Source of the DNA: Escherichia coli O157:H7
GTDB taxonomy: Bacteria > Pseudomonadota > Gammaproteobacteria > Enterobacterales > Enterobacteriaceae
DNA: 64,000 nucleotides
Assembly (NCBI RefSeq): GCF_013167455.1
Contig: NZ_CP038328.1
Direction: 5' to 3' (one strand)
Shown: positions 54,001 to 57,000 of the stretch, piece after piece
How the letters are laid out: every line of letters starts with the position of its first letter
How positions within the stretch are numbered: position 1 is the stretch's first letter
Made by a program: the position numbers

Positions 54001-57000
54001 TTTGTGAATAATCGGACTTAAGTGTTACTTTTTCATTGTTTGAATATTTATCAATTCTAGTATCCGTTATACCAGAAAGCATAATAATGCCTTGCTGAGC
54101 ACTCTCAGGTATAATATTAATATCGAAGTCTGCTGGTAAAACTACAACTTTACCGCTAAATAAAACCTCATCATTAACTATTCGCCGGACTTCTATCTGT
54201 CCTTTTGGCATTTCTGATGCGACAGAATACCAGGCATTATTACCTGAACGAATGGAACGCCAAAAAAGTTCTTTCTCCGGTACAATGCCATATTGCAGAT
54301 CCTTTTTCCAACCGATCTTCGGCCAGGCTCGATGGACAGGATAATCCGATTTAACCAGTTCAACTTCTGTCGATTTAATATAATATTCAATCGCAGAATC
54401 ATAAAGTTGCTGGGTGCGAATTGTACAAACAGCACCATCATGTAAAACAACGCTAAATACTCCACTTATTTTAGTTAAGCTGCGTTCACTGTTTTTCAGC
54501 AACCTTGGGATATCAAACTCACCTTCTCCACTAATATCTAAATGGCTATTTTTCGGTAGCGAAATAAACAGAGCATTTAGCCTGGAACTCACAGACCCCA
54601 TACCAACAAGTTTTAGCTGCGATTCACTCTCATTCATCGCTTCAAAAACCCAGGGAAGTTCTTCAGTAAGTTCATAACCGCCTTTTGGAATTGTGTGACC
54701 TAACAGAATTGGACCTTCATGAAGCGACAATGAGATTTCGGCCATTGCATCTGCACCAGAGAGTTTTTGCATCGCAATAGGTAATAACTCGACCCGCCAA
54801 TCTTGCTGCTCATAACGGCTTAGCATTGCCAACCTTGCCCCGCCATTTTTCCATTTTCCTGAAATGATGAGTCGGGTCTGCTCCGGCTGAATATGGCATT
54901 CAAACAAAGAGGTTAACTGTTCTGTACGCATTGTGGCCGGGAATCGGAACCGGGCATCGCAATACCAACTGTCATCAACATCGACCCAGATTCTTTCAAC
55001 CTGAAGACTACTTGCACTGCGTATTTCAGAAGATTGAGAAAGTAATCGCCTTACAATCTCTGCAGCATTCGCTTCGGGGAGAACGAGTGGAAGTTGAAGA
55101 TGCCAGTCTGGAGAGAGCTTACGTAATGCAGAAACGGGATCACTGCTATGAGGAGGATGCTCACTAAGTAATCGGCAGAGAGTCTCGCAGAATTCACCGG
55201 CTATTTCATAGACCAGTTCGTTTTGCATTGTGACAGGAATCGTATCGCCTAATTCTTGTGCAATTTTAGCGGCAGGATATTGAGATGATTGCCCACGAAG
55301 CGCCTGATATATCCTTCTGAAATAGGTAATCAAATAACCGCTCTCATTTTCAATCATGCGGATAGGCAAACCACCTTCACAAGCCAGTGTATGCAGATAA
55401 CCCGAAGCTTGTCCCAGGTTTCTTATCTTTCTTTTCCAGTAGCGAATGCCATCATTAACCAGCTTCTGTCGATGAACATACGGAACTTTCCAGTTAATAG
55501 AATCTAAAATTGTGTCCCATTTAGGGTGTCCGACCGTATGAGTCCGGCGGATAAACTCTGCGGCATATATGCTAAATAGAACATCGCTATAGGAAATGAA
55601 TATCGTTCTTGGATAACTACGGGGGGCATATGTACGCAGTAGTTCTGCCAAACTTTCGTACTCTGTATCAGTACAACGGTAAGCATATAACGCCCGTCCA
55701 TCAGCTCCGGATAATGAACGGCGACTAAAAAACATGTTAAGCCATTGCAAAAGTGGGTTAACTGGAGTTTTCACAAGCAACCTGCCTTCCTTTGATACAA
55801 TTCGTAACAGGTTACTATCATCATAAAAAAGCTCAACCCGATGAACTCGCTAAAAATGAGACAAATCATTTATATCTCGAAAAAACTTGTTACAATCATG
55901 AGCGCTACACCGAACTTAACCATATAAATTATGTGTGTTTTGTTTATTTTTTAAACGATTACAACTATCCATTATTTACACAGGTATCAAAATGTTAGCG
56001 CAGCTTTTTGAGCAGTTGTTTCAATCGATAGACTCTACACTGATCACCAATATTTTCATCTGGGCTGTTATATTCGTATTTTTATCAGCGTGGTGGTGTG
56101 ACAAAAAAAATATACATAGTAAGTTTAGAGAATATGCTCCAACCTTAATGGGGGCATTAGGTATTCTGGGTACTTTCATTGGTATTATTATTGGTTTACT
56201 CAATTTTAATACCGAAAGTATTGATACCAGCATCCCCGTATTATTAGGTGGCCTAAAAACAGCATTCATTACAAGCATTGTAGGTATGTTTTTTGCCATT
56301 TTATTTAATGGAATGGATGCTTTCTTTTTTGCCAATAAACGAAGTGCGTTAGCAGAAAATAACCCTGAATCTGTTACACCTGAACATATCTATCATGAAT
56401 TAAAAGAGCAGAACCAGACTCTGACTAAATTAGTCTCGGGTATTAACGGTGATAGTGAAGGTTCTCTTATTGCTCAAATAAAATTACTACGTACTGAGAT
56501 TAGCGATTCCTCGCAGGCACAATTAGCTAATCACACTCATTTCAGTAATAAGCTTTGGGAACAACTTGAACAATTTGCAGATCTAATGGCAAAAGGTGCT
56601 ACAGAACAAATTATTGATGCTTTGCGACAAGTCATTATTGATTTTAATCAAAATTTAACTGAACAGTTTGGTGAAAACTTTAAAGCTCTTGATGCCTCTG
56701 TAAAAAAACTTGTTGAGTGGCAGGGAAATTATAAAACGCAAATTGAGCAGATGTCAGAACAATATCAACAAAGTGTCGAGTCCCTGGTTGAAACAAAAAC
56801 TGCGGTTGCAGGGATTTGGGAAGAATGTAAAGAAATTCCTCTGGCTATGTCTGAACTGCGTGAAGTGCTTCAGGTGAACCAACATCAAATCAGCGAACTC
56901 TCCCGCCATTTAGAAACCTTTGTCGCCATCCGCGATAAAGCTACAACCGTATTACCTGAAATACAGAACAAAATGGCTGAAGTGGGTGAACTGCTGAAAT

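What the first reader, a model, noticed from the sequence alone, without database searches (positions are those of the whole stretch)
55781..55934. Short AT-rich divergent control region between the Druantia-like pair and zorA
Only 154 bp separates the start of the 1119-aa gene (minus) from zorA (plus). It is very AT-rich with several TATA-like and TTGnnn hexamers, so two defence modules may share one regulatory region.
Basis: inference. Interest (0 to 1): 0.3.

Follow-up and report, generated by a model that had tools for sequence, protein, structure and literature searches.

The report
Divergent druH–zorA promoter region
The short gap between the Druantia III and Zorya II phage-defence operons of E. 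coli is an ordinary divergent promoter region holding two separate, separately conserved promoters, one per operon, in an already published gene arrangement.

Summary
The window is E. coli O-island 172. It carries ARMADA II, Druantia III (druHE, minus strand) and Zorya II (zorABE, plus strand). The gap is real, but it is 211 bp (55781-55991), not 154 bp. zorA starts at ATG 55992, not GTG 55935. The gap is only modestly AT-richer than its flanks, and promoter-like hexamers are no commoner than in shuffled sequence.

Comparison with diverged loci (Yersinia, Enterobacter, Serratia, Pantoea, metagenomes) shows two discrete conserved blocks in otherwise saturated sequence:
- A minus-strand promoter for druH: TTGAGC-16 bp-TAACCT, 55836-55809.
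- A plus-strand extended -10 promoter for zorA: TGtTACAAT, 55888-55896, preceded by a TGA-N6-TCA dyad.

The 19 bp between the blocks and the roughly 89-nt zorA leader evolve neutrally. Natural rearrangements split the region exactly between the blocks. Each block travels with its own module or decays once its gene is lost.

A published construct carrying exactly this 211 bp plus zorABE protects E. coli, so a zorA promoter lies inside the gap. The divergent arrangement and the synergy of the two systems are already published. The exact -10 and -35 elements and the start sites are predictions, not mapped.

Verdict: a real but ordinary feature. It holds two back-to-back promoters rather than one shared control element. 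Low interest.

The parts
52421..55780 (-). druH (Druantia type III, 1119 aa, TTG start at 55780)
   Evidence: PADLOC DruH3 profile matched end to end, E=0. RefSeq has the same coordinates in ATCC 8739, O157:H7 and EDL933. The start codon aligns with ATG in Yersinia and Serratia.
55781..55991 (.). True druH-zorA intergenic region, 211 bp, 31.8% GC
   Evidence: This is exactly the fragment used as the 'own promoter' of Zorya II in plasmid pGM196; its forward primer binds CCTGCCTTCCTTTGATAC = 55781-55798.
55785..55792 (-). Shine-Dalgarno sequence of druH (AAGGAAGG on the minus strand)
   Evidence: Read directly from the sequence.
55809..55836 (-). Predicted druH promoter P_druH. -35 TTGAGC (55836-55831), 16-bp spacer, -10 TAACCT (55814-55809). 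Predicted start near 55802, leader about 22 nt.
   Evidence: It is the only minus-strand sigma-70 match conserved in all 6 distinct lineages: minimum score 7.96, next best 1.55. 21 of 34 positions of 55804-55837 are invariant in 4 lineages, against 8.8% of 4-fold sites, P about 2e-14. TTGAGC is invariant wherever druH is intact and is mutated in the two loci that lost druH. The start site is inferred.
55838..55856 (.). Unconserved junction between the two promoter blocks
   Evidence: 1 of 19 positions invariant, which is the neutral level. It holds the IS903-like insertion site in Serratia. It is also where homology ends in Zorya loci with other neighbours, L018 and L020.
55857..55868 (+). Conserved dyad TGA-N6-TCA (AAATGA/TCATTT in E. 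coli), centred at 55862.5, about -40.5 to -41.5 from the predicted zorA start
   Evidence: TGA is present in 12 of 14 lineages and GA in all 14, while the neighbouring bases vary. Its function is inferred: either part of the -35 region or a CRP/FNR-type site.
55869..55896 (+). Predicted zorA promoter P_zorA. Weak -35 TTTATA (55869-55874), 16-bp spacer ending in TG (55888-55889), -10 TACAAT (55891-55896). Predicted start 55902-55904.
   Evidence: TTGnTACAAT is kept in every lineage that has this upstream type. It is the best fully conserved plus-strand promoter, minimum score 6.46. 24 of 43 positions of 55857-55899 are invariant, P about 7e-15. It lies inside the fragment shown to be sufficient for Zorya II function. 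The start site is inferred.
55792..55821 (+). Candidate second plus-strand promoter TTGATA-18 bp-TATCAT, overlapping the druH leader and P_druH
   Evidence: Highest single-sequence score in E. coli: 10 of 12 and 9.96. It is conserved in 5 of 6 lineages and absent from Yersinia and Serratia. Unverified.
55900..55991 (+). Predicted zorA leader of about 89 nt, with Shine-Dalgarno AGG at 55982-55984
   Evidence: 6 of 77 positions invariant, with indels. No significant RNA structure, z = -0.78. No Rfam match. Only the last 15 nt are conserved, 7 of 15.
55992..57644 (+). zorA (type II Zorya, 550 aa)
   Evidence: PADLOC ZorA2, E = 1e-302, profile position 1 aligned to residue 20 of the GTG ORF. RefSeq coordinates agree.
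57651..59465 (+). zorB (57651-58358) and zorE (58362-59465)
   Evidence: PADLOC ZorB2 and ZorE2; RefSeq annotation.
46107..52430 (-). druE (Druantia III helicase-nuclease, 2107 aa), overlapping the end of druH by 10 nt
   Evidence: PADLOC DruE3, E=0; ORF list.

Best explanation
The 211-bp gap between druH and zorA (55781-55991) holds two independent sigma-70-type promoters placed back to back. Each belongs to its own defence module.

P_druH reads leftwards: -35 TTGAGC at 55836-55831, a 16-bp spacer, and -10 TAACCT at 55814-55809. It gives a short leader of about 22 nt that carries the strong ribosome-binding site AAGGAAGG and the TTG start codon.

P_zorA reads rightwards. It is an extended -10 promoter, TGtTACAAT at 55888-55896, with a weak -35 (TTTATA) that sits inside a conserved block, TGA-N6-TCATTTAT. 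It gives an unconserved, unstructured leader of about 89 nt before ATG 55992.

The two -35 elements are 32 bp apart and the predicted start sites are about 100 bp apart. The DNA between the two blocks carries no conserved operator.

What is shown: the gene identities, the true boundaries, the two conservation footprints, their separability in nature, and (from the literature) that the gap alone suffices to express functional Zorya II. What is inferred: the exact hexamers, the start sites, and the absence of a dedicated regulator.
For: 1. Gene identities and start codons.
2. Footprints. Four lineages (E. coli, Yersinia proxima, an Enterobacter MAG and a metagenomic clade) have saturated synonymous sites in zorA, only 8.8% invariant. 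In the same lineages 55804-55837 is 62% invariant and 55857-55899 is 56% invariant, binomial P about 1e-14 each. The junction 55838-55856 is 5% invariant and the leader 55900-55976 is 8%.
3. A position-weight scan combined with conservation finds exactly one conserved promoter on the minus strand and one fully conserved on the plus strand.
4. Natural rearrangements.
- An IS903-like element with a 9-bp target duplication sits between the blocks in Serratia. The druH and zorA reading frames and all four motifs remain intact.
- L018, and L020 (where zorA diverges from a type I restriction-modification system), keep only the zorA-side block.
- In Pantoea (L005) and L046, which have lost druH, the -35 TTGAGC has mutated to TTCAGC and TTAAGC. 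It is invariant in all lineages with druH.
5. Experiment in the literature. pGM196 carries window 55781-55991 plus zorABE with the vector's Tat promoter removed, and it protects E. coli MT56 (PMC11890865). Druantia III cloned with its native promoter region works in K-12. The arrangement is described as divergently transcribed.
Against: No transcription start site has been mapped. The held copies of the EDL933 Cappable-seq tables are truncated before 5.41 Mb.

In the E. coli sequence alone, promoter-like matches are no more frequent than in shuffles, so the assignment rests on conservation.

The best-scoring single match in E. coli is a different plus-strand site, TTGATA-18-TATCAT at 55792-55821, which could also be active.

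The conserved blocks are longer than bare -10 and -35 hexamers. Examples are GATTACTAT and TGA-N6-TCATTTAT. Factor-binding sites overlapping the promoters are therefore not excluded.

The spacing between the two blocks is indel-free in all lineages, which could hint at coupling. Over only 19 bp this is not significant.

For pGM196, read-through from vector sequence cannot be excluded from what I could read.
Confidence: 0.72

Rival explanations
1. Shared control. One regulator, or one nucleoid-protein patch such as H-NS on this AT-rich DNA, binds the gap and switches both defence operons together.
For: The gap is the most AT-rich stretch of the locus at 31.8% GC, and it lies in a horizontally acquired island. 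The distance between the two conserved blocks is indel-free in all lineages. The two systems co-occur in about 97% of E. coli genomes that carry Zorya II, and they act synergistically.
Against: No conserved element lies between or across the two blocks; the junction has 1 of 19 positions invariant. No repeated operator-like motif is shared by the two sides beyond chance-level 8-10-mers. The blocks are physically separated by an IS element in Serratia, and they occur singly elsewhere. No regulator gene is adjacent. Synergy does not need the native arrangement. In Sakai microarrays only ECs5259 (druH) fell 4-fold or more at the stationary transition, and the zor genes are not in the table passages I retrieved.
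Confidence: 0.12
2. There is a third, overlapping promoter. TTGATA (55792-55797), an 18-bp spacer and TATCAT (55816-55821) would fire rightwards from inside the druH leader. This would give a long zorA transcript with a leader of about 164 nt. RNA polymerase bound there would exclude polymerase at P_druH, so the two operons would compete.
For: It is the best sigma-70 match in the E. coli gap: 10 of 12 and a score of 9.96. It is kept in E. coli, the 87%-ZorA clade and Enterobacter. The TAYSAT part lies inside conserved block 55808-55821.
Against: The -35 is absent from Yersinia and Serratia (ATCAGA, score 3.66) and from Pantoea. Its -35 coincides with the druH leader next to the ribosome-binding site, which may be conserved for that reason. 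Its -10 coincides with the spacer of P_druH. No start-site data are available.
Confidence: 0.25
3. P_zorA depends on an activator. The conserved TGA-N6-TCA dyad, centred about 41 bp upstream of the predicted start of an extended -10 promoter with a poor -35, would be a class II site for a CRP/FNR-family regulator. Zorya II expression would then follow carbon or oxygen status.
For: The dyad geometry and position are read from the sequence. TGA is conserved in 12 of 14 lineages while the flanking bases vary. The half-sites are perfect 5-bp palindromes (AATGA/TCATT) in E. coli and Pantoea. From my own knowledge, galP1-type class II promoters combine a site at -41.5 with an extended -10.
Against: The half-sites read ATGA/TCAT. 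They lack the G of the CRP motif GTGA and the T of the FNR motif TTGA, and that discriminating position varies (A, C or G) between lineages. L018 and L020 have AGA and CGA in place of TGA. The right half overlaps the -35, which could explain its conservation by itself. zor genes were not among the genes induced 4-fold or more at glucose exhaustion in Sakai, in the table passages I retrieved. The native promoter works in a laboratory strain in rich medium. No position-weight matrix test with curated sites was possible here.
Confidence: 0.12
4. zorABE or druHE transcription actually starts outside the gap, for example inside the neighbouring gene, and the conserved blocks serve another purpose.
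For: No start sites are mapped. There are weak promoter-like matches inside druH, such as TTAACA-18-CATTAT at 55740-55711.
Against: The 211-bp gap alone plus zorABE is functional. For druH, everything upstream of the gap is zorA coding sequence on the other strand, and it shows no conserved minus-strand promoter. Block conservation and its decay after gene loss fit promoter function.
Confidence: 0.05

Closest known systems
Classical back-to-back divergent sigma-70 promoters between two bacterial operons
   Same: Two divergently oriented operons have start codons 211 bp apart. One -35/-10 pair lies on each strand. The -35 elements are 32 bp apart and face away from each other, and the RNA polymerase footprints do not overlap.
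   Different: Nothing essential differs. No divergently encoded regulator is present, unlike many textbook cases where one of the two genes is the regulator (my own knowledge).
O-island 172 defence island of E. coli O157:H7 EDL933 (Zorya II, Druantia III, ARMADA II), and the published Druantia III-Zorya II co-localisation and synergy
   Same: It is the same locus. The sequence is 100% identical over 55600-56150 to O157:H7 and ATCC 8739. The literature states that zorABE (z5894-z5896) is divergently transcribed from druHE. Co-localisation and synergy are reported.
   Different: None of the papers I could search maps the promoters or discusses the intergenic sequence. The conservation footprints and module boundaries given here are additional detail.
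Zorya II 'own promoter' fragment of plasmid pGM196 (Mariano et al. 2025, PMC11890865)
   Same: The insert primer starts at CCTGCCTTCCTTTGATAC, which is window 55781. The fragment is therefore exactly the 211-bp gap, and it drives functional zorABE in E. coli MT56.
   Different: That work treats the fragment as a black box and does not locate the promoter within it.
Bidirectional promoters with a shared symmetrical -10 region (Warman et al. 2021, Nature Microbiology; recalled from my own knowledge)
   Same: There is divergent transcription from one short AT-rich region. The candidate plus-strand -10 TATCAT (55816-55821) lies next to the minus-strand -10 of P_druH (55814-55809).
   Different: The defining geometry is opposite-strand -10 hexamers that overlap, with start sites about 18 bp apart. 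That is not met here. P_druH and P_zorA starts are about 100 bp apart. P_druH and the candidate third promoter would be about 26 bp apart with non-overlapping hexamers.
galP1-type class II CRP-dependent extended -10 promoters (my own knowledge)
   Same: An extended -10 (TGn), a poor -35, and a TGA-N6-TCA dyad centred about 41 bp upstream of the predicted start.
   Different: The half-sites are ATGA/TCAT rather than GTGA/TCAC. Only 14 of 22 positions match the CRP consensus as I recall it. There is no binding or genetic evidence.
Defence-island promoters controlled by a dedicated repressor, such as RptR with TAGCTA repeats (PMC12255303)
   Same: It is a promoter of a phage-defence operon in an E. 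coli island.
   Different: No rptR-like or other regulator gene is adjacent. None of the four published RptR site variants (TAGCTA, TAGATA, TATCTA, TATATA) occurs in 55781-55991, by direct reading against the motifs listed.

Membership tests
Divergent (back-to-back) sigma-70 promoter region | Two adjacent genes on opposite strands whose 5' ends face each other across a non-coding gap | tested here: met
   druH start at 55780 on the minus strand and zorA start at 55992 on the plus strand.
Divergent (back-to-back) sigma-70 promoter region | A -35/-10 match with a 16-18 bp spacer on each strand, upstream of the respective gene | tested here: met
   TTGAGC-16-TAACCT on the minus strand and TTTATA-16-TGtTACAAT on the plus strand. 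In the single sequence the number of matches is no higher than in shuffles. The support comes from conservation in 6 or more lineages.
Divergent (back-to-back) sigma-70 promoter region | Transcription start sites mapped inside the gap for both genes | not testable with these tools
   The held copies of the published EDL933 Cappable-seq tables are truncated. No other start-site data were found.
Divergent (back-to-back) sigma-70 promoter region | The gap is sufficient to drive expression | not testable with these tools
   From the literature, for zorABE only: pGM196 carries exactly 55781-55991 plus zorABE and is protective. For druHE a 'native promoter region' of unstated extent works in K-12.
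Shared-operator or co-regulated divergent control region | A conserved operator or repeat between or common to both promoters | tested here: not met
   The junction 55838-55856 has 1 of 19 positions invariant. The repeats in the gap are short and at chance level. The blocks are separable in nature.
Shared-operator or co-regulated divergent control region | A cognate regulator gene in or next to the locus | tested here: not met
   No regulator is annotated between armA and the gene downstream of zorE. The PADLOC hits are structural defence genes only.
Symmetrical bidirectional promoter (shared -10, starts about 18 bp apart) | Overlapping opposite-strand -10 hexamers | tested here: not met
   The hexamers at 55809-55814 (minus strand) and 55891-55896 (plus strand) are 77 bp apart. 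The candidate 55816-55821 hexamer is adjacent to the minus-strand one but does not overlap it.
Class II CRP/FNR-dependent promoter | Dyad TGTGA-N6-TCACA (CRP) or TTGAT-N4-ATCAA (FNR) | tested here: inconclusive
   The core TGA-N6-TCA is present and conserved. The specificity-determining bases are not: the half-sites read A/C/G-TGA and TCAT.
Class II CRP/FNR-dependent promoter | Site centred near -41.5 relative to a mapped start site | tested here: inconclusive
   The centre at 55862.5 is -40.5 to -41.5 from a predicted, not mapped, start at 55903-55904.
Class II CRP/FNR-dependent promoter | Expression depends on the regulator | not testable with these tools
   No data were found. zor genes were not among the genes induced 4-fold or more at glucose exhaustion, in the table passages I retrieved.
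Zorya type II and Druantia type III (flanking modules) | ZorA2, ZorB2 and ZorE in one operon; DruH and DruE in one operon | tested here: met
   PADLOC profiles cover the whole of DruH, DruE and ZorE, ZorB from residue 6, and ZorA from the ATG at 55992, with E-values from 1e-104 to 0. RefSeq names agree.
Structured RNA leader (riboswitch or attenuator) in the zorA 5' UTR | A conserved or unusually stable secondary structure, or an Rfam match | tested here: not met
   No Rfam match in the gap. Folding z-score is -0.78. The leader sequence is at neutral conservation and carries indels.

The most novel reading that the evidence does not exclude
The conserved TGA-N6-TCA dyad, sitting about 41 bp upstream of an extended -10 promoter with a poor -35, may be a class II activator site for a CRP/FNR-family regulator whose half-site is ATGA. 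Zorya II expression would then be tied to the cell's metabolic or redox state. The neighbouring Druantia III promoter would be constitutive and growth-phase dependent. The indel-free 32-bp spacing of the two -35 elements might couple them through local supercoiling.
Probability: 0.12. Interest if true: 0.4.

Novelty: already known. Interest (0 to 1): 0.15.

Why it matters
How defence systems are expressed before infection is still poorly known. [quoted passage not shown] The gap contains two independent, separable promoters rather than a common switch. This argues that their linkage reflects co-transfer and effector-level synergy, not cis-regulatory coupling. The predicted -10 and -35 elements and start sites also give experimenters precise targets for reporter fusions and native-level expression constructs. 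Beyond that the feature is an ordinary promoter region.

Tried and rejected
1. Published start-site data. The Cappable-seq tables of PMC10469882 are truncated in the held copy and do not reach 5.41 Mb or locus tags 27895-27910. PMC7547250 has no held supplements. The RNA-seq supplements of PMC4048457 contain no Z5894-Z5899 entries.
2. Rfam scan of 55300-56500: only a sub-threshold chance hit inside zorA.
3. RNA folding of the predicted zorA leader: z = -0.78, no structure.
4. Repeats and inverted repeats in the gap. A 25-nt imperfect inverted repeat (55851-75 / 55922-46) and an 8-nt GTATCAAA before both start codons are at chance level. The right arm of the inverted repeat lies in unconserved sequence.
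5. Window-wide search for the two block motifs: no further convincing copies, with counts at or only marginally above shuffle expectation.
6. Viral-contig scan with the P_zorA motif: 73 hits, none next to zor or dru genes, so chance matches in AT-rich phage DNA.
7. Protein search with the DruH N-terminus, to find Druantia-only loci: only 2 hits. The plasmid tblastn gave only near-identical or under-30%-identical DruH, useless for footprinting.
8. Small ORFs in the gap. These are the 68-aa mechanical ORF 55792-55998, a 23-aa plus-strand ORF and a 33-aa minus-strand ORF. I rejected them because the sequence between the blocks is at neutral conservation, and start codons are not kept in other lineages.
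9. RptR-type operator: its motifs are absent.
10. Alternative druH -10 (TGtTACGAA at 55809-55801): rejected because the critical final T of the hexamer is missing in all lineages.
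Full report
**Where we are.** The window is Escherichia coli. Positions 55600-56150 are 100% identical to many O157:H7 genomes and to ATCC 8739, and are present in 521 of 5426 complete E. 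coli genomes. Annotation of matching records, together with PADLOC profiles, gives the gene order on the window:
- A DrmD-like helicase on the minus strand (43025-45883). By gene order and its PADLOC hit it corresponds to armA of ARMADA II as described in the preprint.
- druE (46107-52430, minus strand).
- druH (52421-55780, minus strand).
- zorA, zorB and zorE (plus strand, ending at 59465).
- A phosphorothioate-DNA-dependent restriction enzyme.

This is O-island 172 of EDL933. [quoted passage not shown] **Checking the observation.** The left edge is right. druH starts at TTG 55780, as RefSeq has it in three strains. This codon aligns with an ATG in Yersinia and Serratia and follows the Shine-Dalgarno sequence AAGGAAGG.

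The right edge is wrong. 55935 is merely the first GTG of the open frame. The evidence for ATG 55992 is:
- RefSeq starts zorA at ATG 55992.
- The ZorA2 profile begins at residue 20 of the long ORF.
- The 57 nt before the ATG are unconserved, with frame-breaking indels.
- Published cloning primers use this ATG.

The gap is therefore 211 bp (55781-55991). A quarter of 154-bp windows inside the locus are as AT-rich. Promoter-like sites are not enriched: 5 found against 4.7 +/- 2.4 in shuffles, and hexamer counts lie within the shuffle distributions. From this one sequence alone, nothing distinguishes the gap from chance.

**Comparative evidence.** I collected related loci with a genome scan using ZorA and a metagenome scan using a degenerate pattern for the first ten zorA codons. 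Because that pattern lies in coding sequence, it is unbiased with respect to the upstream DNA.

The head-to-head druH-zorA arrangement recurs in several lineages:
- Escherichia sp. E1V33.
- Yersinia proxima.
- An Enterobacter MAG.
- Serratia sp. PL17.
- A metagenomic clade with 87% ZorA and 83-85% DruH identity.
- A metagenomic relative of the Yersinia locus (L038).

In the more distant lineages (Yersinia, the Enterobacter MAG, Serratia and L038) ZorA is about 80% and DruH about 63% identical to E. coli.

Among four lineages (E. coli, Yersinia, Enterobacter and the 87% clade), four-fold degenerate sites of zorA are saturated, with only 8.8% invariant. Against that benchmark the gap splits sharply:

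| Segment | Invariant positions | Note |
|---|---|---|
| 55804-55837 | 21 of 34 (62%) | binomial P about 2e-14 |
| 55838-55856 | 1 of 19 (5%) | junction between the blocks |
| 55857-55899 | 24 of 43 (56%) | binomial P about 7e-15 |
| 55900-55976 | 6 of 77 (8%) | contains indels |
| 55977-55991 | 7 of 15 (47%) | ribosome-binding site of zorA |

**What the two blocks are.** I scanned every lineage with a simple sigma-70 weight matrix. The matrix used consensus frequencies from memory, so the scores are approximate. I then asked which predicted promoters fall in the same alignment column in all six distinct lineages.

On the minus strand there is exactly one: TTGAGC, a 16-bp spacer, then TAACCT (TAATGT or TAATCT elsewhere). 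Its minimum score is 7.96 and the runner-up scores 1.55. In window coordinates the -35 is 55836-55831 and the -10 is 55814-55809. The three most critical -10 positions (T, A and the final T) are invariant. The predicted start near 55802 gives a leader of about 22 nt containing the Shine-Dalgarno sequence.

On the plus strand the fully conserved promoter is the extended -10 element TGnTACAAT (55888-55896). It has a weak -35 (TTTATA, 55869-55874). This -35 sits inside the conserved block TGA-N6-TCAT(T/G)TAT. The predicted start is 55902-55904 and the leader about 89 nt. That leader has no Rfam match, no unusual folding (z = -0.78) and no sequence conservation.

**Natural experiments on separability.**
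- In Serratia, an IS903-like element has inserted between the two blocks, flanked by a duplication CCTTCA(A/C)GA. The druH side keeps its -10 and -35. The zorA side keeps the dyad and TTGCTACAAT. The druH and zorA reading frames remain intact, and zorB and zorE align over nearly their full length.
- Two metagenomic Zorya II loci (L018 and L020) lack Druantia. In L020 zorA diverges from a type I restriction-modification system. Both keep only the zorA-side block, and homology ends at about 55850.
- Two loci have lost druH: Pantoea L005, which retains about 45 nt of the druH 5' end, and L046, where another gene replaces it. Both still carry the druH-side block, but its -35 has mutated to TTCAGC and TTAAGC. 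It is invariant TTGAGC in every lineage with druH.
- A second class of E. coli-like Zorya II (ZorA 98% identical) sits downstream of type VI secretion genes. Its upstream region is unrelated and carries its own TGaTATAAT. Homology to the window begins only at the ribosome-binding site.

Together these show that each block belongs to its own module and that nothing between them is needed.

**Experimental evidence in the literature.** Mariano et al. [quoted passage not shown] The insert-binding part of their forward primer is CCTGCCTTCCTTTGATAC, the first 18 nt of the gap (55781-55798). The promoter fragment is therefore exactly the 211-bp gap. This plasmid protects E. coli MT56 against several phages, and protection depends on every zor gene. 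A zorABE promoter therefore lies within 55781-55991 and works without Druantia.

Druantia III cloned 'with its native promoter region' is active in K-12, although the extent of that fragment is not given. Synergy between the two systems was demonstrated from separate plasmids under pBAD, so it does not require the native head-to-head arrangement.

In a Sakai microarray time course, ECs5259 (druH) fell about 4-fold at the stationary-phase transition. The zor genes do not appear in the table passages I retrieved. This is weak evidence against tight co-regulation.

**Open points.**
- Start sites are predicted, not mapped. The held copies of the relevant tables are truncated.
- The best single-sequence match in E. 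coli is a different plus-strand site, TTGATA-18-TATCAT (55792-55821). It overlaps the druH leader and P_druH. It is conserved in five of six lineages but not in Yersinia or Serratia. It may be a real third promoter that competes with P_druH.
- The TGA-N6-TCA dyad is centred at 55862.5, about 41 bp upstream of the predicted zorA start. It has the geometry of a class II CRP/FNR site in front of an extended -10 promoter. However, its half-sites (ATGA/TCAT) match neither regulator's specificity base, and that base varies between lineages. I treat this as a low-probability hypothesis.
- H-NS binding to this AT-rich DNA is plausible but untested.

**Verdict.** The feature is real: it is a genuine divergent promoter region. 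It is ordinary, and its arrangement is already published. The suggestion of one shared regulatory region is not supported. The evidence favours two independent back-to-back promoters. Novelty: already known, with only the fine mapping by conservation added here. Interest: low.

Noticed in passing
window 29636-45883 (minus strand): Upstream of druE lie four large genes: a UvrD-like helicase, a 2113-aa DEAD/DEAH helicase, a 1644-aa SAM-dependent DNA methyltransferase and a 952-aa DrmD-like SNF2 helicase. They correspond to the recently named ARMADA II system (armDCBA) of O-island 172. Coordinates were mapped from the PV15-279 annotation.
   Followed up: partly
L004 4722-6000 (Serratia sp. PL17); L012 6222-6616 and L013 from 6222 (Klebsiella and E. 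coli plasmids): The druH-zorA gap is a repeated target of insertion sequences. An IS903-like element sits between the two promoter blocks in Serratia. An IS3-family remnant is inserted at window-equivalent 55917-55920, in the zorA leader, on Klebsiella IncFIB and E. coli IncY plasmids. On the Klebsiella plasmid, homology to zorA also ends at 56457, just before an annotated IS1 transposase. Druantia stays intact on those plasmids while Zorya is destroyed.
   Followed up: partly
L014, L025, L030, L032, L037, L049, L051, L053 (metagenome contigs): A second genomic context exists for a Zorya II operon that is 98% identical in ZorA. It lies on the same strand, downstream of a type VI secretion ImpA/VasL-like gene and a 206-aa protein with sub-threshold Myb/GcrA-like hits. 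Its upstream region is unrelated and carries its own TGaTATAAT. The recombination breakpoint lies right at the zorA ribosome-binding site, about window 55980.
   Followed up: partly
L005 5900-6000 (Pantoea sp. GD03673): This Zorya II locus has no Druantia, yet it keeps a relic of the first 45 nt or so of druH plus the decayed druH promoter. The Zorya-only state here is therefore derived by deletion from the Druantia-Zorya pair.
   Followed up: partly
window 59689-59933 and 60006-60857: Downstream of zorE there is a 245-bp fragment, 93% identical to part of nanM (N-acetylneuraminate epimerase). The full nanM copy lies at about 26002-27108 in the same window. Next comes a gene annotated as a phosphorothioated-DNA-binding restriction endonuclease (HNH family by PADLOC). 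The nanM fragment suggests the island was inserted or rearranged at the nan locus.
   Followed up: no
window about 21109-21657: In the matching O157:H7 record, fimA of the type 1 fimbrial operon is annotated as a pseudogene with an internal stop. The fim, nanCM, uxu and gntP genes occupy roughly 9.5-27 kb of the window. I did not check whether the window itself carries the stop.
   Followed up: no
window 28652-28659: Relative to strain PV15-279, the window lacks a roughly 3.8-kb block of IS1203 and IS66 (ISEc8) elements between the sialate esterase fragment and armD. Window positions 1-4189 do not match that strain's neighbouring sequence. The window therefore comes from a different, closely related strain.
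   Followed up: no
window 8001-9000 and 22001-26000: GC content dips here: 33% around the yjiC-ytiD-iraD region, and 37-39% across the fimB/fimE-nanC region. These are unrelated to the finding.
   Followed up: no
window 52421-52430: druH and druE overlap by 10 nt. The druE start at 52430 lies inside the end of druH at 52421, which is consistent with translational coupling within the druHE operon.
   Followed up: no
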